From positions 1 to 61,938 of the forward strand of contig JWZX01003158.1 in the NCBI GenBank assembly GCA_001275005.1: DNA of 61,938 nucleotides. Reading direction: 5' to 3'. The stretch's first letter is position 1. Every line of letters begins with the position of its first letter. Under the pieces are notes generated by a model. The model saw nothing but the letters and a program-made list of their open reading frames with translations, did no database searches and was not told the DNA's origin. Below are positions 6,201 to 47,095 of the stretch, one piece after another. Origin of the DNA: Chrysochromulina tobinii (lineage: Eukaryota). Position numbers and translations under genes: made by a program.

Positions 6201-9200
6201 TCCGCCTCCGCCGCCGCATCCTCCGCCTCGGCCAACTGACGGACATGCTCGCTCGCCATCTCGGGCTCGATCTGGCGCAGCTCGGCGAGCTTTGCCATGA
6301 GCTGCTGCTTCGCATGCCCGACACCCACCTGCAGCTCCGCCTCGTTCGCCGCCTGGGCGCGTAGCGTGAGAAGCTCCTCGCGCAGCGCGCGGCTCGCGTC
6401 GCGCTCGGCCTCCAGAGCCTTGAGGGCCGCGGCGAGCTCCTGCTTCGAGAGCACGAGCTGTTCGTGGGAGCGGCGTGCTACCGCCGTCGCACGCGAGGCC
6501 TCCTCGACGAGCACGCGCCGCTCCTCCGCACTCCCCTCGTCCGCGGCGTCGCCTCCGTGCAGCTTTGCGAGCAGCCGCGACTCTTCCGCGTCGGCCCGGC
6601 GTAACCGCTCCTCGTAACCGTCGGCCCGGCGTAACCGCTCCTCGTAACCGTCGGCCCGGCGTAACCGCTCCTCGAGCGCGCTCGCATGCGTGCGCGTGAT
6701 CCGCTCGATGCGTTCCTCGAGCGCCGCGCCCCCCGGCGCAACCAAGCCCTCTGGAGCAGCTTCGCTCGTCGGCGCCGCCTCGGCGAGCGGTGCGGCCGGT
6801 GCTGCGGCGGGTGCTGCGGCGGGTGCTGTGGCGGGCGCGGCTGAGGGCGCGCCCACGGCCCTGGCTGCAAGCTTCGCCCGAAGCTGCGCCTCAAGTCTCG
6901 TCACTTCCTCGAGCTGGGCCGCCGCCTCGGCCTGAGCGCACTCCAGAGCCGCGCGCTGGTCGGCCGCCGTGCCGCGCTCGTCGGCGCGCTCCCTGAGGAG
7001 CCTGTCGAGCTCGCGCTGCAGATACGCCTCGCGCTCCGTCGGGAGGGTGCGGGCCGCTGCCCTGTCCGCGATGGCCGCGGCCTGGTTGCTCGAGGCCGGC
7101 GTCTTCGCCTGCGCCGCCGACACGGCCTCGACCGCCATGGCCTCGGCCTGCGCCTGTGCCGCCTGTGCCGCCTGCGTCGCCTGCGCCGTCGCACGCAACG
7201 CCTCCGCCTCGGCCTGCCTCGCGCGGCGCAACTCGTCCGTTGCTCGGTGCGCCTCCTCCCTGGCGGCGGCCACCTCGGCCGCCGCAGCCGCCCGGACTGC
7301 CTCCACCTCGGCCGCCGCGGCCGCTCGAGCATCGGCCACCTCCTGGGCCGCCTCCTGCGCCGCCTCTATATTGGCCAGCTGCGCTGCATCGGCCGCCTCC
7401 TGTGCCGCCTGTGCCGCCGCCTGCCATGCACCTGCCGCCTCGGCGTGCGCCTCAGCCGCCTCTGCGCGCGCCTCAGCCGCCGCCACGTCGAGCCGGAGCG
7501 CTGCCGCCTGCTGCGCCGCCTCATGCGCGCGCGCCGCTTGGGCCGCTTGCGCCGCCTCCGCCGCGCGAGCCGCCAGGGTCGCCTGTGCCGCCGCACGAAA
7601 CGCCGCGATCTGTGCCGCCTGCGCGGCCTCCGCCTCGGCCTGCGCCCGCAGCGCCTCCGCCCGCGCCACTTCCGCCTGTGCCGCCTGCTCGACCTGAGCT
7701 TCCTCCGCCGCCTCGGCCGCTTCGGTCGCCTTTGCCGCAGCCTTCGCCGCCTGTTCCGCGGAGAGGGCGGCAGCCTCGGCCTCGGCGGCCCTCGCCGCCG
7801 CGGCGTCCGCCCCCTCTTTCGCCCTCGCCGCCGTGCCCACTACCTCAGCTTCCAATTCGGAGAGGGCCGCCGTCATCGCGCGCGCTGCGGCCTCTGCCTG
7901 CGCCACCGCCCTCGCATGGGACTGCGCCTGCGCCTTCGCGGCCTCGACGGCGACCGCACTTGCCGCCTGCGCCGCGCTCGCCGCCGCCTGCTGCACTGCC
8001 TCCTCGCTCCGCCGCTCCCGCTCTTCGAGACGAAAGGCGAGCTCCGCCTGGGCTGTGCGCGCCACGTGCGCTGCGCGCGCTGAGCCTTGCAGCTCGCTCA
8101 CCGAGCCTTTTAGCCGCTCGAGACGCGCGTGCAGCGCGTGCGAGTGCAACGCGTGCAAGCAGCGCCGAAGCAGATCATCCTCCTCTGTGCGTACCGTCAA
8201 GTCACCCAACGCGTCTGCCATCTGCTCCCAGCGCACCTCCCAGCGGCGCGTCACACTCTCTTGTTGCTCTCGCAGCTCGACGGTGCGGCGCACCACCGCG
8301 CGCCGCATGGCCTCGACGGTTGTACTGAGCTCCTCGATGCGCCCTCGCGCCGCGAGCAGCTCGGCCTTTGGCACGAGCGCCGCCGAGGCGCCTTCCGCGG
8401 CAGGCGCGGCAGGCGCGGCGGGTGCGGCGGGTGCGGCGGGCGCAGCGCGCGCTACCCTGCTCGGTACCCTGCTCTGTGGCTCGTCCTCGAGCGCGAGCTC
8501 AATCTCAGCCAACCTCGCCTCGGTGATCGCGTCGCGAGTGTCCTGCCGGGCGCCTCGCTCATCGGAGAGGCGCGCCACGCGCTCCTCGAGGTACACACGC
8601 CGCTGCCGTTCGGTGGCGAGTTCGGATGCGAGAACCGACTCCGCATCGGCGATGCTCTGCCGATGCTCGCGCAGCCTCGCGTCCGCCGCACGCGCAACCT
8701 TGACAGCCTCGGCCGACACGAGCTCAGCCTCCCTCTGACTTGACTCGGCTTGCTCATTCCACACCTCCTCGCGCGCCAGCAGCTCGTCGCGCTCGTCGGC
8801 CATCGCAGCCTCGGCCTCTTCGGCCGCCAACGCCCTCGCCTCGGCCGCCTGGGCGCGCGCCTAGGCGATCTGGATCGCCGCCTCGAGCTCGCGCAGCCGA
8901 AGCTGGTCGGCCGCGGCCAAGCCCTGCTCGGTGAAGGCGAAGCGCACCTCCATCTCGTGGACGACTCTCAAAGACTCTGACGCAATGCCACGATGCTCCG
9001 CGAGCTGTGAATGGAGCTCAGCCACCTCGCTCGCGTGCGCCTCCATGACTGACGCGAGCCGCGCTTGCTGCGCCTGTAGCGCGGCCGCCGCCTCCGCCTC
9101 GAGCAGCACCAGCTGCTCCGTGTGCTCGCGATCACGCTCGGAAAGCGAGGCCTGCAGCTCGAGCTTCTGCAACGCGGCCATCCGACCCGCGACCGCGTCC

Positions 9201-11770
9201 GCCTCCGAGCGCAAGCGGGCCGTGTCGGCGGGCGAGGCTGGGGCCCGTACGGGCGAGGCCGCGTCGAACACGTCGCGCTGCTCGGCCACGACGGCTGCTG
9301 CGGCCGCCGCGGCGGCATAGCTCGACTGCGCACGGCTCTCGGCCCTCGCCATCGCCTCGAGGGCGAGGGCATTGGCTGCCTCCGCCTCGGTCTGGGCCAG
9401 GGTGACCTGATGGCGCGATATCGCGGCGCCCGCGCGCATGCCCTCGTTCATGCTGGCCATCGCGCGCTCGTAGGCCACGCGCTGCTCGTCCAGCTGCTTC
9501 CGCTCTCGCACGCGAGCCTCCTCCGCGCTCGAGATGACGCGCGCCACCTGCTGCGACGCGGCACTCGCGCCCTCACGCATGCCCTCCCGCATGCTCGCGA
9601 ACGCCCGCTCGTACGCGACGCGCTGCTCGGTCAGCTGCGCCTGCGTCTGCGCGACGAGTGCCTCGCGTGCCGCCATGGCGCGCGCGCGCTCCTGGGCATG
9701 TGCATGCGCCGACGTCTCGGCGAGTTGGGTGAGCGCTGCCTCGTGGGAGGCGACGGAGTGCTGAGCTTGCATGAGCGCTTGCTCCGTGCGGCGCAGCGCC
9801 GATTCAAAGACGCCGAGCTCCAAGCGCAGCACGTTCGCCTCGGCGCGCTCCCGAGCCTCACGCTCCTCGCTCTCGTGCACGCGCGCCTCGGCGCGAAGCA
9901 GCCGCGCCTCGGTCTGCTGTTGACGAACCTCAGCCGCATGCAACCGCGCCTCGGTCTGCTGTTGACGAACCTCGGCCGCATGCAACGACACCTCGAGGGC
10001 GAGAGCGCGTCGCTCTGTGTCGGCTGTGTCGGCTGCGAGCGCCGTCGAGAGCGCCGTCGCGGACTCGAGGAGCCTCGCGGGAGCGTCGGCACTGGCGGGC
10101 ACAGTGGAGCGCAGCGAGAGCGCCGAGCTGAGCGGCTGCCCTTCGCCTCTGCCCAGATTCAGACGCGGCGGCAGCCCGGGCGACGCCGCTGCCGCCCATA
10201 CCACACGCTCCCTCAGCTCGTCTCGTGCAGTGGTGGCGAATGAAGAGGCAGCCGGCGAGCCCATCTCGGGCTGGCCGCTGAGCATCGCGTACGGCAGTGC
10301 GAAGGAGAGGGCGCGTGCCGCAATCTCCGCCGTGATCTCGATGGAGGCGAGCTCGGCGGAGAGCGTGGCCGCTGCGACCATCCCGGCGTGCTGCTCCTCG
10401 AGCACGAGCTCCGAAGTGGCCGCGTGCCCGGACGCCTGCCCGAGCGCGACCGCAAGCGCCGCCTCGCGCTGCGCCACCGCCGCGGCCGTGTGTGCGACGC
10501 TCGACGCGACGAGCGTGCGCTGCTCCTCGAGCTGAGCGCTCAGCTGCTCGTGGCTCGCCTTGTACTCCCTAATTAGGGAGGAGAGGCGCTCGATCTCGGA
10601 GGTCGAGCTCTCGAGACTCTGCAGGAGCTCCGGGCGCGACGCATCCCGACTCCGCAGCTGCTCCACTTCCTCGAGCAGTCGCTCGATTTGGCGATCCGCC
10701 GTCGCCTTGGCCGCGTCGGCCGCCTGCTGACCCACCGAGGCCGCGGTGAGAGCTGCCGACGCCGTCGCCTCCGCGGCGAGGAGCCGCTCGGTGAGGGCGG
10801 CGCGATCCTCCTGCACGGCACGCTCCTCCTGCTCGAACCGCTCGCGCATCTGGCGCACTGCCCTCTCCTGGCTCACCCACATCTTGAAGGCGCCGAAGCA
10901 CTGGCCGACGAGCCGACGGTACTGGGCGCGTGGCACGAGCATGGCAGCGGCTTGCTGCGCCCTCTGCGCGCGCCGCCACGTGCGGCGCGTGGCGGCCTCG
11001 TGCTCTGTGCGCAGCTCCTCGAGCTGCAGCTGGTGCTCCATGCGCATCTCCTTGAGCGTCCGATCGCGCGTCGCCTCCACTTCAAGCGCCATCGCCTCAG
11101 TCCGCTTCGCGAGGATCTGCTGAAGCTCACCCACGCGCGCCACGAGCGACTCGGAGCGCAGGCTGCGCTCCTCGAGCTCGTAGCCGCCCGCGCGCAGCTG
11201 CGACTCGAGCAGCTCCATCTGCCGCCGCTCCTTTCGCATGTGCTCCGCCAGTTGGTCGCGCTCGGCGCAGAAGCCCGCCGCGATCACCTTGAGTGCGGCA
11301 CTCACCCACCGCTGGAAGAGCCGCTCGAGGCGGGAGCGCTCGTTGCCATTCCAGAGCATGATCATGATTGCGCCGCGTGCCTTGCGCATCCCCTGCTGGC
11401 ACGCGTGAAGCGCTTGCTTCGCCTGCTGCTGCTCCTCGCGCAGCCCATGGATGAGCTCCTGCATGTCTGCGACCGAACGCGAGCGCCGGTCGGGCGCACC
11501 ACCGGTCGTCGAGGGCCGCTGCTCGTCGCGCATGCTCTGCACGGCGCGGCGCATCTCCTGCTCTGCGAGCTCCACCTTGAGCGTCGAGTCCTCCATCTGC
11601 GCCTTGACGGCCTCCAGGCGCGCTCGCCACGATGGAGAGTCGACCGATTTCATCCTCTGGTCGGCGACCTCCTGATCCTTGCGCACGCGCTCGCGCAGCT
11701 CCTCTCGCCAGGCTGCGCCCGGCTTGGCGATTGCCGACGTTGCCTTCGGAGGTCGGGCTGTGCTCGCCAT
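1..11770 (-). CDS. Giant Ala/Glu-rich coiled-coil protein, 3'-incomplete (runs off window), with a single in-frame TAG at 8861-8863
   Basis: ORF 8861..11836 (ATG at 11770, MASTARPP) ends IQIA*, but the same frame continues ARAQAAEARALAAEEAEAAM. Spot checks at about 6600, 800 and 1-20 are in this frame and give E/A/R/K-rich heptad-like sequence. The ORF track lists no stop-terminated ORF in this frame between 1 and 8860, consistent with it being open to the window edge. Confidence 0.8.
1257..1373 (-). repeat. 42-bp coding tandem repeat, about 2.8 copies (APAYAVNYDEATV[L/H])
   Basis: tcgtagttgaccgcgtacgcgggcgca starts at 1263, 1305 and 1347. Confidence 0.9.
1789..1972 (-). repeat. Coding tandem repeats (IDEAPPATPLEA / IDEAPPDQSLLGAA units)
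   Basis: Repeated gggggcgcttcgtcaattgct units with two alternating spacers. Confidence 0.85.
2690..3057 (-). repeat. Coding (AEP)n tract followed by acidic (DEA/DGA)n tract
   Basis: 9-bp ggctctgc[a/t] units at about 2850-3057 and catctgcc[t/c] units at about 2720-2830. Confidence 0.85.
6589..6674 (-). repeat. 30-bp coding tandem repeat, about 3 copies (EERLRRADGY)
   Basis: cgtcggcccggcgtaaccgctcctcgtaac repeated with period 30. Confidence 0.9.
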
Positions 11771-20288: not shown

Positions 20289-20676
20289 GGGTTTGTGGGG
20301 TCCCATGATTTCGCAGGTGGGTGTGTGAAATCACAGGAACCTATGAATTCACGCCTACCCGCGATTTCACAGGGGAGTGCGATTTCACACTAAGGCCTGT
20401 GATTTCACAGGAGGGTGTGATTTCACGCCCGGGGGTGTGATTTCGCAGGGGGCTGTGATTTCACGCCCAGGGGTGTGATTTCGCGGGGGGCTGTGATTTC
20501 ACGCCCGGGGGTGTGATTTCGCAGGGGGCTGTGATTTCGCGTCCGGGGGCGTGATTTCACAGGGGGCCGTGATTTCACCCCCGGGGGTGTGATTTCATGG
20601 CTTCTCGAAATCACACCCCCCCCTGTGATTTCACACACTTCTGTGATTTCACACCCCAACCTACGAAAACGCACCC
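20289..20676. mobile_element. Putative non-autonomous DNA transposon (MITE-like) filled with TGTGATTTC[A/G]C repeats
   Basis: TA|GGGT...ACCC|TA ends and imperfect ~28-bp subterminal inverted repeats (tttcgcaggtgggtgtgtgaaatcacag versus the reverse complement of 20641-20668). Internal 19-20-bp units; no convincing coding capacity. Confidence 0.6.
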
Positions 20677-30288: not shown

Positions 30289-32648
30289 ACGGCGCAAGCC
30301 GATGGCCGAGGCAGCCGAGGACGACGTTGCGCAGGGCATCGCGTCAGAGGGAGTGGGTACAGTCGGAGCGCCGGCGGAGGTCACGGGCTGGTTCGCGGAC
30401 GTCGTCGGCGCGCGAATGGTGAGGAGCTCCGTCCATGGCCTTCGTTTTCGAAGCTCGGCGGTCGCGGAGTGTGCACGGCCCGTTCGTTGGCGGCCGGCCT
30501 GTTCGAATGCATCGCTCTCTCGACTTGCCAAATTAGGAAGTTCCGCTCCCGAGGCACTGTGCCTTAGCGCGTCGGCGCCCCCTCCCAACTGCTGCATCGC
30601 CGCCGCAAGGACGGCGAGCTGCGCGTCGTCCATCGGGCGAGCATGCAGCGCCGCTGCAAGGGCATCCTCAAGTGCCGCAGCCCCCGCATCGAGCGCCGCC
30701 TGATGTTCAAGCTTGAGGCGCGTCACCTGTGGGGAGAGGGGCGGGGCGCTGTGGTGAGCCCTTGCATGCGCGGCTCCCGCATCGAGCGCCGCCTGATGTT
30801 CGAGCTTGAGGCGCGTCACCTCCGCCAATCAGAGGCAATCAGAGGCAATCAGAGGCAATCAACGAGACTCACCTCCGCCTCGTGGCGCTCCTTGAGCTCC
30901 TTGAGCTCCTGCTGACGTTCCCATTCGAGCTGTGCTCGTATCTCAGCCTCGGCGCTCGCTTGCGTGTGGGAGCGCTTCATCAATCGCACCGCCTCCGCCT
31001 CGATCTCTGCGTGGTCGAGCATCGCAGCCGCGCGGGCGGCGGCCACCTCCTCGTGGCGCTGGAGCATTGATTCGCCCTCGACCCGCGCGCGGTCGAGGGC
31101 CTCCTCCACCAGGTTGTGCCGCAGCTCCTCGAGCGTGCTTGCATGCGCAGCCGCATGCCGCATGGTCGACTCCTCAGCCATCCCTGATTTGGTCATCCCA
31201 GCGAGCGTGCTTCCTAATTTGGCACGCGCAGCCCCAGTTTGGGTGACCATGCTTCGCGGAATGACGAGGCCGCTCGCCGCCGCGACGGCGCCCAGTAGCG
31301 TTGGGGTTGACGAACCTCCGAGCCACTGCCGAGCAGAGGACGGCTGCGCTCCGGCCGAAAACCCTGTGGCGGTCGCCGTGTTGGGCGCCGTGATGGGCGC
31401 TTCCTCCCTCGCCTTCGCCCTTGCGAGGGCGTCGAATCCCGTCGGTCTCTGATTGGCATGTGATTGCCTCTGATCGCCTCTGATTGCAACGGCGTCGAAT
31501 CCCGTCGGCCTCGCAGGCTGGCTACTAGTTTGGATAGCGGCTCTCAGGCCAGAGGGGCCTCCAGCGGCCGCCGCGGGCACAGCGCTGAGCACAGCGCCCA
31601 TAGGTGCGGGTGCTGGTGCGCGCTCGTTCAATGGCGGCCGCCCTGGCAGAGCTTCAGCAGCCATCGAACGTGCGTCCTCGGCGGGCATCGTGCGCAGCAC
31701 GATGAGGCTGAGGGCGGCCGACTCGCTGCTGCCACGTGAGTCGAGAGGACGGCGGGCCTCCCCTAGAACGTACTTGGCCAGCGCCGGGGAGAGCAGCTTG
31801 CCCGTTACTCCAATGATCGCATCACCCACACGGAGCTGGTGCTCGGGCGGGCTCGGCGCGCCCGCGGCTTCGCCGCCGCCGATTCGGAAGCGAGAGGGCG
31901 ACCCGAGCGGCGCACCGGACCGAAAGGCACTCGTGTTGCGCATTGCATCTTCCCAAGGGAGAGTGGAGCCGTTGCTTGGGATGTCCGCCGCCTCTGAGTA
32001 GACGACGAGCAAGTCGCCCGCGAGGGGCATGCGCCGCTTCTCGAGGCACGAGGCGACCGACTCGTGCGAGTCCCGCCGAATCTGCAGGCCCTCGACAAGC
32101 GCCTCGGCCAGCCCGATTTCGACGCCGGCCAGGCTCGCCGAGGGTAGCGTGATGACTCTCGTGAAGGGCGTGTCGGCGTGCCCAAAGCCGCGAGCAGCCG
32201 ATCCGGCGAGCTCGTTGGCGAGCAGCATGTGGACCGCCTTCCACGCTGCAAGGCCACCGTCTTCGCGCTCGAGTGAGCCTCGCCCGAGCAGGGCTGGGAG
32301 TAAGAGGCTGATCATCAGGGCGCTCCGAGGAGCGTCGCTAGCCGAAGGCGCGACGAGGGTGAAGAAGCTCTCGAGAAGGTGCGCCTTGAGCGGCGTGACG
32401 GAGCGCATCACACCGGAGACGCGCGTCTGTGCGGAGGTCAGACCATCAGATGGCGTGACTGCAATCAGCGACGCGGATGCCGCCTTGTCGAGCACAGGAT
32501 CCGTTTCGCAGTCCTGCAGGGTACTCAGGAGGGATGCCGCCGCCTGCGTACGGCCGAGCAGATTTACATGCAGCCCGCTGCTGATGTGCTCATCAACCGC
32601 GGCCGCGAGCAGTGTGGATGAGCTGGACGAGCGTACAAAATCGGGCAT
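29650..32648 (-). CDS. Hypothetical protein with a PDZ-like segment, coiled coil and poly-Ser tail; intron 30727-30872 and probable intron near 31449-31511
   Basis: ORFs 30849..32711 and 29650..30828 join in phase 0 (ERHEAE|VTRLKL). QLRVGDAIIGVTG...LSLIVLR resembles a PDZ C-terminal half. The 3' end is uncertain. Confidence 0.65.
30727..30872 (-). other. 146-nt composite intron: donor module + copy of the exon-exon junction + acceptor module
   Basis: GTGAGTCTCGTT(GATTGCCTCT)3GATT-GGCGGAG/GTGACG...GCCGCG-CATGCAAGGGCTCACCACAGCGCCCCGCCCCTCTCCCCACAG. Confidence 0.85.
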
Positions 32649-32848
32649 GAAGATCGCTGCCTCGCCGCAGCCTCTCTCAAAAGACCGTCCATCCGCCCTT
32701 TTCACATTCACAGTTCAAAGCTACAAAAGCTACAAAAGCTACAAAAGCAAACAAAAGTACCCACGCACGCAAGCCAACAGTCAGCATACAGCTCACATTC
32801 CAAAAATGGGACAGAGAGGGTCTGTATTCCTGTGAGTTCTGTATTGGA

Positions 32849-35119
32849 ATGCGAGGAATCCTTTTGTGGCTCGCGGCTGGTGCCGTCGCCATCTTGCCTG
32901 AGCTGGGAGCGACGCCTTTCGAGGCGCTCTTTGTGGGATCGCTGCTGGTCGCGGCGTGGATCCTGAGCAATATCACACCCAAGCAGCTCATCATCTCCAT
33001 TACCCTGTCCATTATCGAAATCTTCTTCCGCGAGATGGGCGCGCGCAACCAGTTTAAGGTGCCCGGGCCCAATATGCCCACGATCTTCATGTGCGCGCCT
33101 CACGCCAACCAGTTCCTCGACCCGTTTGTGGTGATCAGCGCGGTGGGGCGCACCGACGTGTGCTACCTCGCAGCGGCCAAGTCGATGCGGCTGCGCTTTG
33201 TCGGGCTCATGGCGCGCCTGCTCGATTCGATCCCAGTCGAGCGCGCCGACGACGTCGCCTTCCAGGGACGCGGCACCGTGTGGATCTCGCCCGAGGACGG
33301 CATGACGGTGCTCGGCCGCGGCACCGACTTCACGCAGGCGCTCAAGCCTGGGGACGCCATCGTCGTCGAGGGGCGCGATGGGCCGCTCGCCATCAGGCAG
33401 GTGGTGTCTGACGAGGAGCTGCTCCTCAAGAGGCCAGCGCCGCCGCTGCCCGCCTCCGCCGACGAGGCGGAGTCAGGGGTGGCCGAGTCAGGGGTGGCGG
33501 CCGCGGCCGTGACGGCGGCAGCTCCTGCTGAAGCCGGGGGCTACACACCGTACCGCGTCAACCCGCATGTCGACCAATCGGCCATGTTCGATTCGGTGCA
33601 CGAGGCGCTCAATGCTGGCAAGGCGATCGGCATCTTTCCTGAAGGGGGCAGCCACGATCGACCGGGGCTGCTGCCGTTGAAGGCGGGCGTCGCGATCATG
33701 GCGCTGGGTGCGCTCACCAAGTACCCGCACATGCCTCTCCGCCTCGTGCCCGTTGGCCTGAACTACTTTTCGGGCCATCGCTTCCGCTCTCGAGTCTTTG
33801 TCGACATTGGCGAGCCTCTGACAGTGCCCTCGGAGCTCCTGCCTCGGTACATGCAGGGCGGCGAGGAGAAGCGCGCCGCGACGAGCGAGTTGATGGCGAT
33901 GCTCAACGCGGCACTCTCGGCGATCACCATCTCGGCGCCCGACTATGACACCCTCGAGTTCTTTTGGACGCTGCGGCGCTTGATCAAGTCATCGTCGCAT
34001 GGCCCGATGTCCATCACCGAACAGACCGAGCTCGCACGCCGTTTCGCTGCGGGCTATGAGCGGGTGCTGCCCGACGGCCGTCTATGGCGTGAGACGGAGC
34101 GAGTGCGTAGCGCACGTGAGCGCTGCGCTGAGTACAATCGACAGCTGAAGAGCCTCATGCTGCGCGACTATCAAGTGCACCATGTTCTCACTCACATGAC
34201 GCGCGACAAGGCGCTCTGCCTCTTCCTATGGCGCGCCCTCATGCTACTCGCGGCGACGGTACTCTGGTTGCCTATGACGCTGCTCTCGCTGCCTGTGCTC
34301 ATCTTGACGCGCCTCGTCTCGGCGAGCAAGGCGCGCCAGGCCGTCGTCAAATCGTCCGTCAAGATTCATGGGCGCGACGTCGCCGCCACGTGGAAGGTGC
34401 TCGTGGCACTTGTATTATTGCCTGTGCTTTGGGTGACGTACACGTGGCTGTCGGGCGAGCTCGTTCGGGAGCTCTACCGACGCGGCGGCAGCGGCGGCAG
34501 CAGCAGCGGCGCCGACGACAAGTCCGGGAGCGCCGTGTCCGGGAGCGCCGGTCCGCTCGAGAGGGACACGGGCGCGGCCGTGAATCTCGCGCGGCTGCTC
34601 ACCTTCTTCCTCCTCCCCGTATTCGCGTACGCCTTCATCCTACTCTCCGAACAGATGCTCGCCATCATGCGCTCGTTGCTGCCGCTGCTCGTCATCGCGG
34701 TCTCGCCCGCCAAGGCGCAGCAGATCATTGCGGAGCGCACCAAGCTGCAGCAGGACATGCGCACCCTCGTTGATGATTTGGGTTGGCGGCAAGATTCGTT
34801 CACCGACCTCACCCCGCGCCACACTTCAACCCCCTCCAAGGATCAGCGCTGTGACGAGCGCTGGCCGATGCAGCCATCATCGCAAGGCAACGCGCCTGCC
34901 TTCCCCGCATCGCCAGCTGCCTTGTCCGCCACCGCCTCGACCTCGCAAGGCCACGCGGCTTCCTTACCCCCGTCTCCAGCTGCCTCGACCTCGCCCGTCG
35001 ATGAAGCGCATTCCACAGCGGCGCCGGGGCGCTCGGCGACAGCGGGGTTCAGCGTATCCGTGCCGAGTCCGACTAGGTCACCGACCAGCACGCAGCGAGG
35101 GACGCCGGCACTCTTGTGA
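32849..35119 (+). CDS. Glycerol-3-phosphate O-acyltransferase, Gpt2/Sct1-like, membrane bound
   Basis: CAPHANQFLDP (HxxxxD block I), GIFPEGGSHDR (block III), VPVGLNYF, GRDVAATWKVLV and C-terminal TM segments. Confidence 0.9.
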   Translation: MRGILLWLAAGAVAILPELGATPFEALFVGSLLVAAWILSNITPKQLIISITLSIIEIFFREMGARNQFKVPGPNMPTIFMCAPHANQFLDPFVVISAVGRTDVCYLAAAKSMRLRFVGLMARLLDSIPVERADDVAFQGRGTVWISPEDGMTVLGRGTDFTQALKPGDAIVVEGRDGPLAIRQVVSDEELLLKRPAPPLPASADEAESGVAESGVAAAAVTAAAPAEAGGYTPYRVNPHVDQSAMFDSVHEALNAGKAIGIFPEGGSHDRPGLLPLKAGVAIMALGALTKYPHMPLRLVPVGLNYFSGHRFRSRVFVDIGEPLTVPSELLPRYMQGGEEKRAATSELMAMLNAALSAITISAPDYDTLEFFWTLRRLIKSSSHGPMSITEQTELARRFAAGYERVLPDGRLWRETERVRSARERCAEYNRQLKSLMLRDYQVHHVLTHMTRDKALCLFLWRALMLLAATVLWLPMTLLSLPVLILTRLVSASKARQAVVKSSVKIHGRDVAATWKVLVALVLLPVLWVTYTWLSGELVRELYRRGGSGGSSSGADDKSGSAVSGSAGPLERDTGAAVNLARLLTFFLLPVFAYAFILLSEQMLAIMRSLLPLLVIAVSPAKAQQIIAERTKLQQDMRTLVDDLGWRQDSFTDLTPRHTSTPSKDQRCDERWPMQPSSQGNAPAFPASPAALSATASTSQGHAASLPPSPAASTSPVDEAHSTAAPGRSATAGFSVSVPSPTRSPTSTQRGTPALL

Positions 35120-35345
35120 CTACCGTGGGTGAGCTGGCACACCGAGCATTTGCCGAGATCCTGAAGCGTCCTCGAACGCGCTCGAATTCCTTGGACCCAT
35201 CCGGACTTGAACGCGGGTGTGTAATCCGCGAAAGAGAAGGAGGCTCACCAAGTTGGGTTGACGTCGTCGTCGTGAAGGCCGTACACGTCGCGTACGGTAT
35301 CGCATGGGGATAGTTGTCTACAGCGCGTATCTGATGTGTCTATTT

Positions 35346-35575
35346 CACTGAGTTCAAAATCAGGTGGTGAGGATAGTGTGTGAATCCAGAAAGAATACCC
35401 TCCCCTACCCCTTTGGGTCAACCACTGAGTTCAAAATCAGGTGGTGGGGATAGTGTGTGAATCCAGAAAGAATACCCTCCCCTAGCCCTTTGGGTCAACC
35501 ACTGAGTTCAAGATCAGGTGGTGGGGATAGTGTGTGAATCCAGAAAGAATACCCTCCCCTACCCCTTTGGGTCAA
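35346..35575. repeat. 77-bp tandem repeat, 3 near-identical copies
   Basis: cactgagttcaa...tttgggtcaac starts at 35346, 35423 and 35500. Confidence 0.92.
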
Positions 35576-35826
35576 GTTTTAACATTCATAACTGAAGAAG
35601 GAATTGAGAAACCAAACGAGACCGCGAGGGGCTCGACGGCAGGGTTCGGGAGGGGGCACTGGAGTGTGCGTGGGGGTGCGTTTTGTGAGCCTGCCAAGCG
35701 GGAGGGCGCGAGGATTCAATGGCGTGACGAATGGTAGACCGAACTGAAGTGTGAAGACATGTCCTCCGTGTGACTGTGAAGAGCATGGTGAACCTCTTTA
35801 AGTCTTTATTTTCCGAATGATCCATC

Positions 35827-37754: not shown

Positions 37755-38134
37755 TTACTTCTTGATGGGGCCGCGAGCCGGTTTGTCCGAGACCTCTGAG
37801 TACGGGAAGGTGGCACCCTTGTCGCAGGGCTTTTCCACCTGCGAACAGCAGTAGACGCACGTTTCAGCGCAGGATTTCCCCAGTGCTACGGTTCAAGGAA
37901 AATGCTACTCACGTTGCAGCCCTTGGCCACGGCAGGGACCTTCTCCGTCATGCCAGCAATGCCCGGACGAATGGCCCAGACCGCCTTCGCCTCCGCAGCG
38001 TTCGCCGCGACGGCGCCGAGAACCAGCGGGCTGGCAGCAAGCGCGCTGAAGACGTCGCGGCGCGTACGCGGCGCCCCGAGCTGCAGTGAGCTGGCGAAGG
38101 CGCAGAGGAGAGCGATCAAGAGGACTCGAAACAT
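37755..38134 (-). CDS. Small nucleus-encoded thylakoid-lumen protein (101 aa, 2 exons; intron 37839-37912)
   Basis: Signal peptide MFRVLLIALLCAFASS, then twin-arginine RRD, a hydrophobic core and ANA. AAC|GTGAGT...TTCGCAG|GTG gives exon 2 VEKPCDKGATFPYSEVSDKPARGPIKK*. Confidence 0.75.
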
Positions 38135-38232: not shown

Positions 38233-41200
38233 TCAAGCTTTCAACAAGGCATCGGGCGGAGCAACATGTGAAAAGGCGATGATTTTTCCATCGGAACGCC
38301 CTCGCAGACGAGAGTCGGGAGCGTGCGAACGAGAGTCATCAATGGGCGAGGCGCTGCGGCTGCCCCCGCTTCTGGTGAGGCCCTCAACCCCGCTGCTGCC
38401 GCTGTGGATGCTGGAGGAGTCATCTTCCTCCATAATGCCCTCCAGCTTGGCCGTTGCCCGCAAGAATGTGGCACGCAGTCTGGACTGATGTGAACTGCTG
38501 CTAGTGTGCCGCAAGTACCGCGCGAGCTCAATGCAGGTGTTGAGCTCGGCCATGTATTCCTCGCCCATTCGCACCAAGACCGGGTTCGAGACCGGCGGCG
38601 TCGTCACGAGCTGACCAGTATCTGAAGCCGCCTTGCGCCTAAGTAGGTCCCAACCTGCTTTGTCAGCCAGTTTGGGCCATTTGTTCCTTGTTCTGGTGAG
38701 CTTGCGGACGACCCAATCAATGCCAGAAAGCCGAGTATCAATCTTGCGGTGATTGGGCACCAGATTACGGGCCTTGGCTGCCATCGCGCTCCTCGCGGCG
38801 GCCGCAGCCGCTCGTCGAGCCTCGAGGATTTCATCCTTAAACTTCGTGTCGTGCTTGAGCGCATCGTCAATGGTTTCGACGTCGAGGGTAGTCAAATCGC
38901 AGTAGGTCACCGCCTTGGCCGTCTGCGTGCAGCGCGGCTGCATCTTGGCAACGCAGCTGGCATAGTAATCGTTGAAACCGAAGTTGTCCGTGTTGGTGAG
39001 GTTCGTTTGCATCCCGTCGTGCGTGGAGGTCTGAACTATGCCCTTGTTGATGAAGAAGCAGGCGGTGAGCGGCGTGCCCTGCATAGTGATAAGTTGATCC
39101 GGGATATAGACGCAAGCCTTGAACTCGGCGATGAGCGCAACGAGCGACGCATTCGACACGTTGTGGAAGAAGGGACATCTGGACGTGAGTCGACGGGAGG
39201 TGACGAGGTCCAGTTGCGCCGAGAGGTTGAGGGGCAGCTGATCAAACATGTTCATGTCCTGCAACGCGGCCGAGGAGGTGAGGAGGTATTCGTAGTACTC
39301 CATGATACGTGCGCGCAAGGCGGGCGGGACGGCCTTGAGCACGAGGTACGTCTTGATCGAATCGAGCTGCTTGCCCGTGAGCTGTCTTTTCGCATTCATC
39401 GCGGCGAGCGCTTGGTTGAGCGTAGAGATGATGTAGGCGTTGAGCAGCAGGCCGATGAACATGCATGCGGTCGTCAGGAGCGACTCCGTCACGGTCAACG
39501 GCTCAATGTCGCGTGGCATCAGCGAGGTCACCATACCAGCTCCCCAAGCGAAAGAGTACGTGTACTTCATCGTGACCGATGCGTCGTTCCTAAGCCAGTG
39601 GGGTGGTTGCCAGTTGTTCTCGCCCGCGTGCCACGGCGAGGCCAACCACGATCCTGGCTCAGGGCCCAACTCCTCCTCTGACCTCTCGATGTCAGCGACC
39701 ATCCACCAGAGACAGCCGAGCAGATGGCAGCAGAAGACGACGAGGGACAGCAATTTCACCACGGTAATCGCGTTGGGGTCCAAACCCAAATCTTCCAACG
39801 CTTCCAAGGACTTTGCGAGCCTCCGCATGCGAAAAAGCTTTGTGAGCTTTGCCATCCGCACGAGCCGCAGCATGCGGTTGGCGCGCGCGGCGTCCGCACC
39901 GCCCGACTGGGCTTGCTGCATTTCGGCTATCTGCGCATCACCGTAGGGATTGTCGGGATTCGTAAGCATGGTCACGATGTTGATCGGGAAGGAGCCGATC
40001 GCGTCCATCACAAAGGAACCATGCACGTATGCCTTGGCCACCTCCCAATCATCGGCGACGAGATGACCTTCGCGCATGAAACCTGTGCGGAAGTTGAGGA
40101 CAATGTCGATGATGAAAAACAGGTCGACCAACGCGTTGCCCCAATACCATTGCAGGTAGGAGATGCAATTTCCGCGAAACGAGATCGGGCCGTAGGGGTC
40201 CTTAGGATTTGTGCACATGGCTTGGACCATGTCCGGCTCGAATGCAATCTCGAGGGGAACGGCGATGCCGCAATAGAGGATGCCGATGGCGAGCAACACG
40301 TTCCAACGGGAGCGGAAGGGTGATTCAGGGGGGAGCACTTTGAAGCAGCAGACGCTACAGCAGCCACGAAAGGTCTTGAACTGCTCGGGGATGTACCAGA
40401 GGAGCGGCTGGACAACGTACTTGTTAATGTACGAGTTGCGCCACGTGGAATCGCCCGTGCCGCCTACTCTGCCTCTGGATTGCCGCCCCGCCCGAGTCCT
40501 GGTCTTTTGGTTGTTCTGACGCTGATCGTCTAGACCCTCCGGCTCCCACCACAGCTGAATGCGCACCTCGCCTTGCGTGTCGAGGACCACGGTCATGTCG
40601 CGGCGCACCTCGTTGCAGTATGTGTGGTCGGCCAGCTCAACGTCGGCGCGGCCAAGGAAATCATCTTTAGAGCCGCCGAGCCGATACAGATCGAAATCCC
40701 ACACCGATAGCTTAAGGGGGTCGGCAATAAGCTGGCCGAGGACGCCAGAGAAGGCAAAGACTTCGTCGACCCACACGGGGTTGAGAGTCTTAAGCTTCTT
40801 GCGTGATCGCTGCTGCTGCTGTCCCAATGCTAGCTTGACATCTGGACACGCGGTGGACGAGAGAATCGAAACACAGGTCGTGCGCACGTGAGCAAACCAG
40901 AGGGCGGATGAGCGAGGGCGCTGTTCGACTGTGAGATTAGTACAAGGGTCCGAAAGGCCGTTGGCGTCAGCCGAGCAGAGGCCCTTTGCTGAGAGAAGCT
41001 GCAAGTAAAGCGTGCCCTCCGACTCAAGGTCGGCGATTGTGGGCACCTTCCGCCTGTTATTGTTGACATACTCGGTAAGCTTGCCACGCACATCTTTGAT
41101 GAGGGCTTTGACGTTCGGATCGCCCTCGAGCATCTCCCAGGTATAAGTTCCGTCGAGCGGCGATTCAGCAGACTTTTCATCAGCGTTGAGTTCAGCGGAC

Positions 41201-43006: not shown

Positions 43007-43930
43007 GGGGAACCCCGAACCGACCGTCCGGCAACTCGGAATGCCTCGACAAAGAACACCGATGAGTTCGCCCGCGATGCCTCTACACAGCTCCCTCATT
43101 CATAGACACACGGAAACAGCATTTCACAGCAGGAGCGAGATGCTGCGAAGGACCCTCGAAATGAGACACATGCAGACGGAGAGCTGAGAACCAGCCAAAA
43201 TAAGAGAGTGCGGCGAGACCCATGTATGAACTCGTGAGGGAGGACGCCCGCCGACGTGGGCGGTGAACCCCCAGATGGGCGAGCCAAGGGGCAACGAGCA
43301 TTGTTTCGCGACCCACTGCGATGGACGAGCCAAGGGGTAACGAGCTCTGTTTCGCGGGAGACACCCAAACCCCCAATAACGGCGCCGGGGCAAACGCGAA
43401 ACGGCGGATCGCAATCTGAATCTCCAGGGTGAATCTCGTCTCTGCCTCCCCGCTCGTCTCTGCCCCCCCGACTGGGGCACTGGGCCTATGATGCGTACCT
43501 TCACGTTAGTTAGCCGAGCCGTTTAACTTTTGGGGCGTCACGCGGCGAAGTTGCGGCGGGCACGTACAACGTGGCGCTCATTGAAGCGCGCCCTCGCGGG
43601 CTCGCGGGCGGCGTTAAACGCGCCCGCATCATCAAGCATCATTCTCTGATCATTCTGTGGATCTGAAAAGCTACACGCCCGCGGATTCTGCGATTCAACG
43701 TTGATCGTATCGAGAAAAATATCACCGCCCGACGCCTTTTATTGCCTGGGTACCCCGCGCCCGCCTCGCCACGTGGTGTGCGCCGCTGCCGTCAGGACGG
43801 CGTGTTTTGCATGCGTGTTTTACTTACTTCGACTACTCGACTAAACATAACCGGGGTTCCGCACCGCACTATACAGCGGCGCTCATGCAAGTCTGCCACC
43901 ACCGCTCAAATATCTAGATTCCATGGGCCT

Positions 43931-44501: not shown

Positions 44502-47095
44502 CCGCTGCCGCCGCCGCTAAACGCCGCTAACTTACACCGCCTCGCGCCGCAATTCACCGGGTCGCGCGCCGTATCGAGCGTATGCATGCCGCCGCCATTC
44601 GCCTGGGTGAGTGACCGGAGTGCTGATGGGCGGGATGCCAGCTCGGTGGCGGCGGCGGCGGCGGCGGCGAGTGCGACCGGATAGCCCACCGGATAGCCGT
44701 TGCGCCGCGCATCCGCCTCGTCACTCCCACGGGTGATCGAGGCGACCCCGTCTTTCCTGGTCACGTTGCTGCGGCGTGGCACAGGCGCATGCATCGGCGG
44801 CACAGGCGCATGCATCGTGGCGTGCGGCGCGCCGAGCGCCGGAGCGGTCACAATCGGCGCCAGCTCCTGGAAGGGCATCGAGATCCGCCGAAGCACCGCA
44901 CGACTGCCTGCCCGCGTCTTGAAGGTGAGCGAGAGCAGACCTGCTTTGCTCGAGCTCCTCTCGACCTTGTGCCGAGCACGCCCTTCAGCGGCAGCGGCGG
45001 CGGCGTCGCCGCCGCTGACATCGCCTGTGCTCGGGTCGTTCTCCGCGCCGTCATCAGCTTCGTCAAACTGCGTGGGTGAGGGGAGTTCAGCACGTAAGAA
45101 CTCGTGCCACTGCTCCACATCCACGCCTTCCTTGTTGGCCTCGTCGTAGAGCTCATCGATGAAGACGTTCTCGATCTCGTACCCGCGCGAGGCGAGAGCG
45201 AGCTTACGCGCCATGGCGAGCTCGTGGAATCGTACGTACCGCTTGGCCGCTTCAGAGAATCGTCCGCGGCCCAGGCCCGCACCGCCGCCGCCGCTGCCGC
45301 TAACGCCGCCGCCTCCTCCACCTCCGCCGCCGCCTCCGCGCAGCACCTGGTTCCGCTGAGTGATGCGAGCTAACAGGCCGGCACCGTCGTCGGTGCTGCT
45401 AAAGCCGCCGTCGTCGCCGCCGCCGCCGTCGTCGCCGCCGCCGCTGCCAAAACTCATCTGGATCGTACGAGAGAGCTCCTCCTGCTCCTCCGACGCTGCG
45501 CGTAGCTGCTCCACGCGAGCATGAGGCAATCAGTGGCAATCAATTGCAATCAGAGGCAATCAACGACACTCACCTGCTCCGCGCGAGTCGCGAGCATGAG
45601 GCAGTCAGTGGCAATCAGTGGCAATAACGACACTCACCTGCTCCGCGCGAGTCGCGAGCATGAGGCGTTGCCACACGGTGGTGACCCGGAGCGTGCGGTT
45701 GCGGTTGCGCAGCGTCGTGTTCTCGGCTTCGAGCTCGGCGATGCGCTGAGCCATCGGCCCACCGCCGAGTGCGCTCACCACTTGCTGTATGTGGCTCGGG
45801 TGGTCCAGACCCTGGCCATCCCGCGCATGTACCTCCTTCCTGAGCCGATCGATCAGCAGCCGCGCCGCGCTCGCCTCCTCGCGAGCGAACGCGAGCTCGC
45901 TCTCGAGGTGCGAGGCGTCCAGTCGACCGAGGAAGGAATGAGGGCGCACCACCACGCTCACCGCCTTGGCCCGCACGGCAAACCGGAGCGTGCCGATCGT
46001 CTCGTCGAGGTTGGCACTCTCCGTGCGCAGCGTGACCACGACGGCGCTCGCCGTATTGCCGCCGAGCGACTCCTGCAGCAGGCGGGTGAGTTTGCTGTCG
46101 CGGTAGGGCACGTGCGCGGCGCCCTGGGCCATGCAGCGCACGCGACGTGGCCGCCAGCCGCTCGATGACGGTGCCGAGGGCGAAGAGGGACGTGTTGATG
46201 TTCCGCGCCTCTTCACGCCGCTGCGGCGCCGACGAAGGGCCTCTGACCGACTCGACATAGTACGACTTCTTGGAACTCTCCATCCCTGCGAGGTCGACCA
46301 ACGAGAGCTTGCCACTTTCCGCGCCGCCACTGTCCTGGCCACTGCTCACGTCGTGCAGCTCGAGCACAAAGAGTGCGTGCGAGCGCGACGAGCGAGCATT
46401 CATCTTCATCGCGGCGACCACACGCAGCTCGTTGCCAACGCCGCAGGCAGTCCATGACCTCCGTCTCGGAGGTGACGACCTCGCGAACGAGGCCTTCCAC
46501 CACGACACGCCGCTGTGCTGTCTCGCGCAGCACGAGGCCCTTGCGCCCACCCAATAGATCGTTGCACTGGTCATTGTACACCTCGACGTACGAGGCCATG
46601 ACGACGAACTGGGACGCCTTCGGCGCGCTGCGCAGCGAGGCGAAGATGTCGGCGATCGCACGCGGTGCGAGCCCGTGCAGCGTTACGTCCGACCCGCTCC
46701 AGTCGCGTATGACCTCCTCTGGACCGAACATCGTGTACGTCTTGCCGCTGCCTGCCGGAACGAGAGAGGCCGCAGAGCAGTGGCGCGTGTGTGGGGTCAC
46801 CGAGACAGAGGCGAGAGGCGGTCGCACGTAGCGTACCTGTCTGCCCGTATGCGATGATGCACAGATTGTAGCCATGCATAACGCGCGCGACGCGCTCGCG
46901 GCCCAAGATCTCATAGACTTCCTCTTGTGCTGCATCCGCATCCCACACCCAGTCCAGAGAGAACTCGAGGTTGCGCACCTGCACAGTCCGCTGCTGATCG
47001 AAGCGCTTCTTGACGATGATTGAGTCGTCGCGAGGCGCGGATGAGTCGAGGTCGGGGCGCAGCCGCGCGTACACGCCCACTGCTTCTTGGGCCAT
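43931..47095 (-). CDS. Kinesin motor protein with long low-complexity tail; introns 46752-46836 and 45506-45637; two +1 frameshifts (about 46437 and about 46125)
   Basis: VYARLRP, YGQTG|SGKTYTM (P-loop split by an intron), SYVEVYND, NARSSRSH, VDLAGME, INTSL and HVPYRDSKLTRLLQESLGGN are distributed over three frames. Confidence 0.9.
45506..45637 (-). other. 132-nt intron made of two stacked units (donor module + copy of upstream exon end)
   Basis: The exon end GCCTCATGCTCGCGACTCGCGCGGAGCAG (45638-45666) is copied exactly at 45574-45602 and partly at 45506-45527. Each copy is preceded by GTGAGTGTCGTT plus GATTGCC repeats. Confidence 0.88.

What the first reader, a model, noticed from the sequence alone, without database searches (positions are those of the whole stretch)
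30676..30879. Intron containing a copy of its own spliced junction, flanked by separate donor and acceptor modules
Seen in the sequence: the intron begins with essentially the same module as the kinesin intron 15 kb away (GTGAGTCTCGTT + GATTGCCTCT x3). It then carries GGCGGAG|GTGACG..., which is 7 nt of the upstream exon joined to 51 nt of the downstream exon, as in the spliced mRNA or the pre-insertion allele. It ends in a distinct module, CATGCAAGGGCTCACCACAGCGCCCCGCCCCTCTCCCCACAG. Inference: two complementary half-intron cassettes hit one AG|GT site. One supplies GT and borrows AG from a duplicated upstream exon; the other supplies AG and borrows GT from a duplicated downstream exon.
Basis: partly seen in the sequence, partly recalled or inferred. 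Interest (0 to 1): 0.85.

Follow-up and report, generated by a model that had tools for sequence, protein, structure and literature searches.

The report
Half-introns stacked at one splice junction
In a freshwater haptophyte alga, one intron consists of two half-introns, each a copy of a repeated intron end paired with a duplicated piece of the neighbouring exon, and many other introns in related DNA are built the same way, which likely reveals a route to new introns that standard transposon searches miss.

Summary
Confirmed. The 146-nt minus-strand intron (30872-30727) is a donor module, a 7+51-nt copy of its own spliced junction, and an acceptor module. It is not a haplotype join: one DNA contig spans the duplication, and 23 of 25 informative homologous ORFs carry both exon copies.

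In 173 kb of related DNA both modules are families. An upstream-exon copy follows 9 of 18 donor modules (0 of 306 controls). A downstream-exon copy precedes 9 of 17 acceptor modules (1 of 272) and 13 of 19 modules of a second acceptor type. Copies are 7-51 nt, with no fixed duplication length and no shared terminal inverted repeats. At least five other introns also hold their own junction.

A 63-nt filler-plus-duplication in this gene is absent from 9 of 9 more distant alleles. In another gene, a 46-nt filler matches the end of an intron 1.67 kb upstream.

Best reading (0.55): intron ends are copied in by template-switching repair with target duplication, twice at this junction. Order and template (DNA or RNA) are unknown. 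The scan earlier reported an acceptor-type family on another piece of this genome (e1-2577349). A published introner survey lists C. tobinii with zero families.

The parts
30873..32648 (-). Exon 1 of the host gene (hypothetical protein; NCBI model Ctob_000860 = P0002; no Pfam hit at E<=0.1)
   Evidence: RNA contig X12-1 matches 32639-30869 without gaps
30873..30879 (-). Last 7 nt of exon 1, the source of the upstream-exon copy
30827..30872 (-). Donor module: GT donor plus a 10-nt repeat tract with stop codons in all three frames; member of a family
   Evidence: read-through into it is seen in all 10 non-model homologues
30820..30826 (-). Copy of the last 7 nt of exon 1; supplies an internal AG (end of a possible 53-nt intron)
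   Evidence: used by the C. parva gene model P0048
30769..30819 (-). Copy of the first 51 nt of exon 2 (3 mismatches); supplies an internal GT
30727..30768 (-). Acceptor module: conserved core with a branch-point-like pentamer, pyrimidine-rich tail and terminal CAG; member of a family
   Evidence: summed DNA depth 883 against about 46 in the flanks
30676..30726 (-). Start of exon 2, the source of the downstream-exon copy
   Evidence: junction 30873>30726 is used by P0002 and inferred for RNA contig X12-1
31428..31508 (+). Same kind of mutation in exon 1: 45 nt of repeat filler, antisense to the gene, between two 18-nt direct repeats; in frame and polymorphic
   Evidence: retained in RNA contigs X12-1, X13-7 and X15-14
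45506..45637 (-). Kinesin-gene intron: two stacked units of donor module plus upstream-exon copy (64 + 68 nt)

Best explanation
The intron is two stacked half-introns, each a copy of a repeated intron end next to a duplicated piece of exon, and each was likely made by a break-repair or template-switch event that copied the end of another intron while duplicating the target. In a donor-type event, synthesis would leave the gene at an AG|GT-like site, copy an intron 5' end with its 10-nt repeats, and rejoin a few to tens of bases upstream, so the exon copy supplies the AG. An acceptor-type event is the mirror image, and the exon copy supplies the GT. Short homology between template and target splice-site sequence would steer new events to existing junctions, so layers pile up and the intron ends up holding its own spliced junction. 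Only spliceable or in-frame products would persist. SHOWN: the anatomy, both families, their link to exon copies, variable lengths, one polymorphic filler-plus-duplication with single-copy alleles, and one filler matching a nearby intron end. INFERRED: two events at this site, repair or template switching as the cause, homology guidance, a DNA template, and selection. Order unknown.
For: Donor modules with an anchored upstream-exon copy (score>=10): 9 of 18 against 0 of 306 cross-site controls. Acceptor modules of this type: 9 of 17 against 1 of 272. Repeat-tract acceptor type: 13 of 19 against 2 of 328. Copy lengths are 7-51 nt with 18 distinct values in 25 hand-picked clean introns. All 17 acceptor-type copies start GT or GC, 15 of 17 follow a G and 11 of 17 follow AG. 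The 63-nt insertion at 31428-31508 is absent from P0003-P0011 (9 of 9, including the most divergent), which have one copy of the repeat; it is antisense, so it cannot be a remnant of an intron at that site. In L009 a filler is 45/46 identical to the 3' end of an intron 1.67 kb upstream on the same strand, includes that intron's own exon copy and ends at its AG; lake allele L010 has the source intron but not this copy. By hand count, 6 of 22 acceptor-type introns outside the window start at or across a different, earlier insertion; 2.4 are expected if AGGT sites were hit at random (P=0.027) and 0.66 for GGT sites (P=4e-5). At L026 ~18212 an exact 46-nt copy plus acceptor module follows an older intron that keeps its own AG.
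Against: No intron-free or acceptor-only allele of this site was found, so two events are not directly shown. Whole introns with donor and acceptor modules joined and no exon copy between them exist (L009 ~1402 and ~10841), which fits a single intron patched once. Repeat type did not cluster significantly by locus (18 pairs against 13.7 shuffled; 629 of 5000), so local copying is not shown as the rule. Repeat tracts are strongly one-stranded within loci (L031 32:1, L009 4:64, L026 6:87), which DNA repair with free filler orientation would not predict. The loci were chosen by the donor motif and the chance background is crude. No enzyme or template was identified.
Confidence: 0.55

Rival explanations
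1. Same two-layer history, but the template is RNA: excised or partly spliced intron RNA is reverse-transcribed into a nick (target-primed, LINE-like) or used as a repair patch, giving variable duplications and fillers truncated at one end.
For: Fillers keep one exact intron end and vary at the other. The L009 filler stops exactly at its source intron's 3' splice site. Tracts are strand-biased within loci. Duplication lengths vary.
Against: The 31428-31508 filler is antisense and has no splice-site end. Donor-type fillers keep the 5' end, not the 3' end where priming would occur. Selection for splicing and homology-guided DNA switching also explain exact ends and strand. No reverse transcriptase was looked for, because no genome is held for this window.
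Confidence: 0.2
2. One whole donor-plus-acceptor intron came first, and a break inside it was patched once with spliced cDNA or an intron-free allele (incomplete intron loss). Half-introns elsewhere would be the one-sided outcomes of the same process.
For: The internal junction copy is contiguous and exact. Whole donor-acceptor introns exist. In L009 ~10000 the junction is AG|GG, so its acceptor half could not stand alone. It needs one event rather than two.
Against: It cannot give the antisense 63-nt gain, the filler copied from a different intron, or a downstream-exon copy placed after an intact older acceptor (L026 ~18212, L009 ~9867, L026 ~13048). In L009 ~10000 the upstream part of the junction copy is diverged (4 mismatches in 22 nt) while the 20-nt downstream part is exact, which suggests two dates.
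Confidence: 0.13
3. Two independent DNA-transposon introners (MITE-like), one carrying the 5' and one the 3' splice site, inserted at the same AG|GT.
For: Both polarities are described for introners, including a 5'-site carrier without inverted repeats in a marine Chrysochromulina (bioRxiv 10.1101/2022.06.06.494994, passages).
Against: Described families have short duplications of 3-8 nt fixed per class. Here copies are 7-51 nt, fillers vary at one end, and inverted repeats of 6 nt or more occur in only 4 of 25 fillers (max 7; 3 and 2 nt for this intron's halves).
Confidence: 0.05
4. Plain tandem duplications by slippage across the splice sites of an ordinary old intron, followed by loss of internal parts.
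For: Simple duplications across splice sites are common in these loci (kinesin; L019 three units; L013 against L012; L009 ~10921).
Against: A contiguous spliced junction inside the intron cannot arise from duplication of an intron-bearing allele without an extra precise deletion, and each module is present only once here.
Confidence: 0.05
5. Assembly artefact: two haplotypes joined.
For: DNA run X9 may be the source of the window and so may not be independent.
Against: X9 contig 21 spans 30300-30853 with 0 differences at depth 45, like its flanks. 23 of 25 informative ORFs, down to 89% identity and from JGI and ENA assemblies, have both copies. C. tobinii is reported as probably haploid (PMC4580454, passages).
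Confidence: 0.02

Closest known systems
[quoted passage not shown]
   Same: Repeated intron sequences supply one splice site and the duplicated exon supplies the other; the mRNA is unchanged; both polarities occur.
   Different: Their duplications are 3-8 nt and fixed per class, and introns resemble each other at both ends. Here copies are 7-51 nt, similarity is at one end only, the filler is repeat-rich, and layers stack at one junction. The 2025 survey lists C. tobinii with 0 introner families (PMC12130899 supplement file 7); the 2022 pipeline requires similarity at both ends and removes low-complexity families.
[quoted passage not shown]
   Same: Direct repeats left by staggered breaks, and repeated gains at one site (parallel gains in 43 of 90 new Daphnia introns).
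   Different: In Daphnia, parallel gains are separate alleles with unrelated inserts (criteria seen). Here the fillers form recognisable families of intron ends, one is traceable to a neighbouring intron, and the layers sit in one allele.
Intron gain by tandem genomic duplication of AGGT (review PMC3443670, passages)
   Same: A duplicated exon segment provides splice sites; some local cases take both sites from the duplication (L009 ~8800).
   Different: Here a filler derived from other introns lies between the copies and carries one of the two sites.
Earlier scan note e1-2577349 (same genome, another piece)
   Same: A 66-nt intron with a 15-nt exon copy supplying GT, reported as part of a repeated family in lake metagenomes.
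   Different: That note covers the acceptor polarity only. Its sequence was not shown, so identity with this acceptor family is untested. The donor polarity, stacking, the copy from a neighbouring intron and the allele data are added here.

Membership tests
Introner (transposon-derived intron family) | Multiple introns with related sequence at unrelated gene positions | tested here: met
   8 algal donor-motif sites among the 39 loci; 18 acceptor profile hits at E<=0.05 in 9 representative loci plus the window
Introner (transposon-derived intron family) | Similarity between introns reaches both intron ends (operational definition) | tested here: not met
   One end of most copies is locus-specific exon copy
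DNA-transposon (MITE-like) introner | Short target-site duplication of fixed length | tested here: not met
   7-51 nt, 18 distinct lengths in 25 introns
DNA-transposon (MITE-like) introner | Terminal inverted repeats | tested here: not met
   6 nt or more in 4 of 25 fillers, max 7; 3 and 2 nt in this intron's halves
DNA-transposon (MITE-like) introner | Autonomous partner element with a transposase | not testable with these tools
   No whole genome is held for this window
Intron gain by break repair with filler | Direct repeats flanking the insert, with single-copy alleles lacking it | tested here: inconclusive
   Met for the 63-nt insertion in the same gene (9 of 9 more distant alleles lack it); not met for this intron, where no intron-free allele was found
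Intron gain by break repair with filler | Filler templated from nearby DNA with microhomology at the joints | tested here: inconclusive
   One clear case in the same gene (45/46 nt); shared bases at joints seen but not tested against a null; locus clustering not significant
Non-LTR retrotransposon or SINE insertion (target-primed reverse transcription) | Variable duplication, fixed 3' end and truncated 5' end (features recalled, not from a call) | tested here: inconclusive
   Fits acceptor types; donor types keep the 5' end; the antisense insertion has neither end
Non-LTR retrotransposon or SINE insertion (target-primed reverse transcription) | Partner reverse transcriptase and its RNA | not tested
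   No genome held; not searched
Spliceosomal GT-AG intron | Removed from mRNA | tested here: met
   Indirect: RNA contig X12-1 stops matching at 30869 with 461 letters left; X12 depth is 7.52 (that contig's depth) at 30523 and 0 at 30742.
Twintron or alternative 3' splice-site intron | The internal splice sites (53-nt or 93-nt introns) are used in RNA | tested here: inconclusive
   Gene models disagree (P0002 146 nt; P0048 53 nt). X13 and X15 depth at 30742 (10.5, 40.7) may come from other module copies.

The most novel reading that the evidence does not exclude
These algae make new introns without any transposon: the two ends of existing introns spread separately, copied (possibly from intron RNA) onto sequences that look like splice junctions, each time duplicating tens of bases of exon. 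Introns thus breed introns, preferentially at junctions already in use, and the class is invisible to introner searches that need both ends to match.
Probability: 0.3. Interest if true: 0.85.

Novelty: new variant of a known kind. Interest (0 to 1): 0.68.

Why it matters
Where new spliceosomal introns come from is a long-standing question, and most recent answers invoke transposon-like introners found by requiring similarity at both intron ends. Here, introns are similar at one end only and carry long, variable exon copies, in a lineage whose reference genome that survey scored as having no introners. The footprints are fresh: polymorphic insertions, exact copies, and one filler traceable to its source intron. 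The species is cultured and reported as probably haploid, and many lake alleles are public. So the break-repair and intron-copying models, mostly inferred from scattered cases, become testable at scale. In practice the internal junction copies also mislead gene models (two annotations pick different acceptors here) and can be collapsed by assemblers.

Tried and rejected
No whole genome is held, so module copies could not be counted genome-wide; all counts come from 173 kb of non-redundant DNA (7 representative loci plus the window; the profile search used 9 loci plus the window), chosen by the donor motif. Donor motif in viral contigs: 0 matches. Host-protein scans of GTDB genomes and viral contigs: no relative confirmed. 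Two of the 10 sites among the 39 metagenome loci (L008/L038, L014) have no repeat tract after the motif and were set aside as unrelated. Clustering of repeat type by locus: not significant. The first control for the repeat-tract acceptor type gave 14 of 21 against 14 of 400; two rows whose 'exon' was itself repeat tract were dropped, giving 13 of 19 against 2 of 328. For the stacking count, L009 ~6813 was added by hand (anchored score 8, because of a 7-nt indel), L026 ~18650 was left out, and same-module tandem duplications were not counted as stacked. A first probe for the L009 copy was mis-placed and found nothing; the alignment replaced it. P0030 as the ancestral donor-only state was not accepted: two-copy P0036 and P0037 lie outside the clade holding it (99/96, midpoint root, bootstrap not settled), its cluster mate P0039 has both copies, only protein was seen, and assembly collapse is possible. 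Copy length and filler length are negatively correlated (rho -0.50, p 0.010, n 25), as a minimum intron size would give, but the rows were hand-picked, so it is not relied on. Pfam: no family for P0002 or P0048. Earlier-finding look-ups by sequence and by place: nothing. Eight literature searches listed no paper that, by title or abstract start, describes this architecture in haptophytes; the library lacks most subscription papers.

Full report
Observation. Exon 1 ends at 30873. A 46-nt donor module follows (GT start, 10-nt repeats), then a 7-nt copy of the exon-1 end, a 51-nt copy of the exon-2 start with 3 mismatches, and a 42-nt acceptor module ending at 30727. The whole intron (146 nt), the donor half (53 nt) and the acceptor half (93 nt) are all GT..AG. 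Removing 146 or 53 nt leaves an open frame of 950 or 981 aa; unspliced RNA stops at aa 599, and the donor half has stops in all three frames. The donor start shares four further bases with the exon-2 start, so that duplication can be read as 11 nt spanning the junction.

Organism and gene. The best named match is the NCBI model Ctob_000860 of Chrysochromulina tobinii (P0002), which uses the 146-nt intron. A C. parva model (P0048) uses the 53-nt intron and reads the acceptor half as 31 extra residues. Neither has a Pfam hit.

Not an artefact; spliced. In DNA run X9 one contig covers 30300-30853 with no differences at depth 45, and the next covers 30836-35400 at depth 46.5; X9 may be the window's source. 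Independently, 27 proteins matched the exon-2 frame, 25 are informative, and 23 carry both exon-2 copies, down to 89% identity. Three of the 23 are window-encoded and many are near-identical, so these are not 23 independent lineages. RNA contig X12-1 matches 32639-30869 and has 461 letters left; X12 depth is 7.52 (that contig's depth) at 30523 and 0 at 30742, which implies the 146-nt splice (indirect, as the joint row was among 82 not displayed). X13 and X15 have depth at 30742, but this may come from other copies of the module. Use of the inner splice sites is therefore open.

Both modules are families tied to exon copies. A metagenome scan with the donor motif gave 39 loci at 10 distinct sites: 8 algal (one is the window's kinesin intron) and 2 set aside as unrelated. 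In 7 representative loci plus the window (173 kb), 9 of 18 first-in-array donor modules have an anchored upstream-exon copy scoring 10 or more, against 0 of 306 cross-site controls; at a threshold of 7, which includes this intron, it is 11 of 18 against 11 of 306. The acceptor module has many relatives in the flanks: 18 profile hits, 17 with a YAG, 9 of 17 with an anchored downstream-exon copy, against 1 of 272 controls. Summed X9 depth over it is 883 against about 46 (not a copy number). A third module, the 10-nt repeat tract ending in a short acceptor, behaves the same way: 13 of 19 against 2 of 328 after dropping two rows whose 'exon' was repeat tract (14 of 21 against 14 of 400 before). 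Among 25 hand-picked clean introns, copies are 7-51 nt (18 distinct lengths, median 27), fillers 28-151 nt, and terminal inverted repeats of 6 nt or more occur in 4. All 17 acceptor-type copies begin GT or GC; 7 of 8 donor-type copies end AG.

Stacking is regular. Other introns hold their own junction: L009 ~6813, ~10180 and ~10689, L031 ~13741 and L002 ~12289 (by eye). By hand count, 6 of 22 acceptor-type introns outside the window begin at or across a different, earlier insertion; a crude background expects 2.4 (AGGT sites, P=0.027) or 0.66 (GGT sites, P=4e-5). Simple tandem duplications across splice sites also occur (kinesin, L019, L013 against L012) and were not counted. Whole introns with donor and acceptor modules directly joined exist too (L009 ~1402, ~10841), so the halves look like ends of ordinary members of one intron pool, not self-contained cassettes.

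Direction and template. In exon 1 of this same gene, 45 nt of repeat filler lies antisense between 18-nt direct repeats (31428-31508). It is present in the window, P0001 and six cluster members, and absent from P0003-P0011 (9 of 9), which have one copy of the repeat and include the most divergent alleles. RNA contigs retain it. This is most simply a gain of filler plus duplication at a site that had no intron. In L009, a filler is 45/46 identical to the 3' end of an intron 1.67 kb upstream on the same strand, includes that intron's own exon copy and stops at its AG; lake allele L010 has the source intron but only repeat tract at the recipient site. Against a general rule of local copying, repeat type does not cluster significantly by locus (629 of 5000 shuffles). 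Repeat tracts are strongly one-stranded within several loci, which fits homology-guided switching, an RNA template, or selection.

History of this site. All 10 non-model exon-1 homologues read into the donor module; no intron-free allele was seen. One allele, P0030, appears from its protein to have the donor half only, but it nests among two-copy alleles (99/96, midpoint root, rough support) and its cluster mate has both copies. It is more likely a loss by recombination between the repeats, or an assembly collapse. P0032 and P0040 have a frameshifted acceptor half, so that frame is not always kept. The order of events is not determined.

Mechanism. I commit to two layered events of templated break repair or template switching, each copying an intron end and duplicating the target, steered to splice-junction-like sequence by short homology (0.55). 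Rivals: the same with an RNA template (0.2); one whole intron patched once by a spliced or intron-free template (0.13); two DNA-transposon introners (0.05); slippage alone (0.05); artefact (0.02). The likeness to polymerase-theta templated insertions and to target-primed reverse transcription is recalled; PMC5730883 and PMC8355091 were seen as search listings only.

Comparison with what is known. Introners that carry one splice site and take the other from the duplication are described in dinoflagellates, with 3-8-nt duplications fixed per class (bioRxiv 10.1101/2020.10.14.339549; parts 1-2 of 4 read), and in a marine Chrysochromulina with 4 nt and no inverted repeats (bioRxiv 10.1101/2022.06.06.494994; passages). 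That pipeline needs similarity at both intron ends and removes low-complexity families (passages). C. tobinii appears in its supplement only in the list of genomes (PMC9860276; supplement search, file cut when stored) and has 0 families in the 2025 update (PMC12130899; passages; supplement search, files 13-14 not searched). Introner consensus sequences were not seen, so a relation to the marine Chrysochromulina families is untested. Break-repair gain with direct repeats and parallel gains at one site is described in Daphnia (PMC4202315; passages), and the standard mechanisms are reviewed in PMC3443670 (passages). PMC8469720 proposes intron RNA as repair filler but reports no flanking duplications (passages). 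PMC11282704 (passages) does not mention haptophytes. PMC4580454 (passages) suggests that C. tobinii is haploid. It works like a one-splice-site introner but fails the introner tests of both-end similarity, fixed duplication and inverted repeats. Searches listed no description of it.

Verdict. Real; a new variant of a known kind; interest 0.68. Limits: 173 kb of ascertained DNA, hand classification, contigs rather than raw reads, protein-only allele data at this site, and no identified enzyme.

Noticed in passing
window 35346-35576: Three copies of a 77-nt unit next to the end of a gene; summed DNA depth in this bin is about 10,000 against about 46, so it is a high-copy repeat.
   Followed up: no
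window 20306-20668: Array of alternating 18- and 20-nt units (38-nt period) with inverted arms of 44-52 nt.
   Followed up: no
window 43150-43430: Multi-copy stretch (bin depth about 1,220 in X9, loose ends in RNA and DNA runs) with a 37-nt direct repeat at offset 46.
   Followed up: no
window 46126 and 44390: All four laid runs lack one base at 46126 in the kinesin gene (likely an error in the window's assembly); X9 has 30 extra bases behind 44390.
   Followed up: no
window about 12868-12777 (minus): Another GT..AG stretch with degenerate 10-nt repeats and a weak upstream-exon likeness near its 3' end.
   Followed up: no
window about 37836-37909 and 40842-40943 (minus): Two RNA-supported introns (74 and 102 nt) with no repeat tract or exon copy visible by eye, so not all introns here are of this kind.
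   Followed up: partly
L009 minus-strand offsets 8813-8858 and 10481-10526; L010: 46-nt piece of one intron, including its exon copy, reappears inside another intron 1.67 kb downstream; absent at that site in the lake allele.
   Followed up: yes
P0013-P0037 N-termini: The translation of the intronic exon-2 copy plus acceptor module is nearly invariant across alleles (one change among 23) while the true exon copy varies at three positions; could reflect coding use of the short-intron form, gene conversion or chance.
   Followed up: partly
L012 vs L013; L019/L028; L009 ~4522: Units of donor module plus exon copy form tandem arrays of 1-3 and differ between alleles, as unequal crossing-over between the exon copies would give.
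   Followed up: partly
L009, L026, L002, L031 versus the window: Repeat-tract introns crowd into some stretches (9-14 sites per 20 kb strand in L002, L009, L026) while the 62-kb window has few; the loci were selected by the donor motif.
   Followed up: partly
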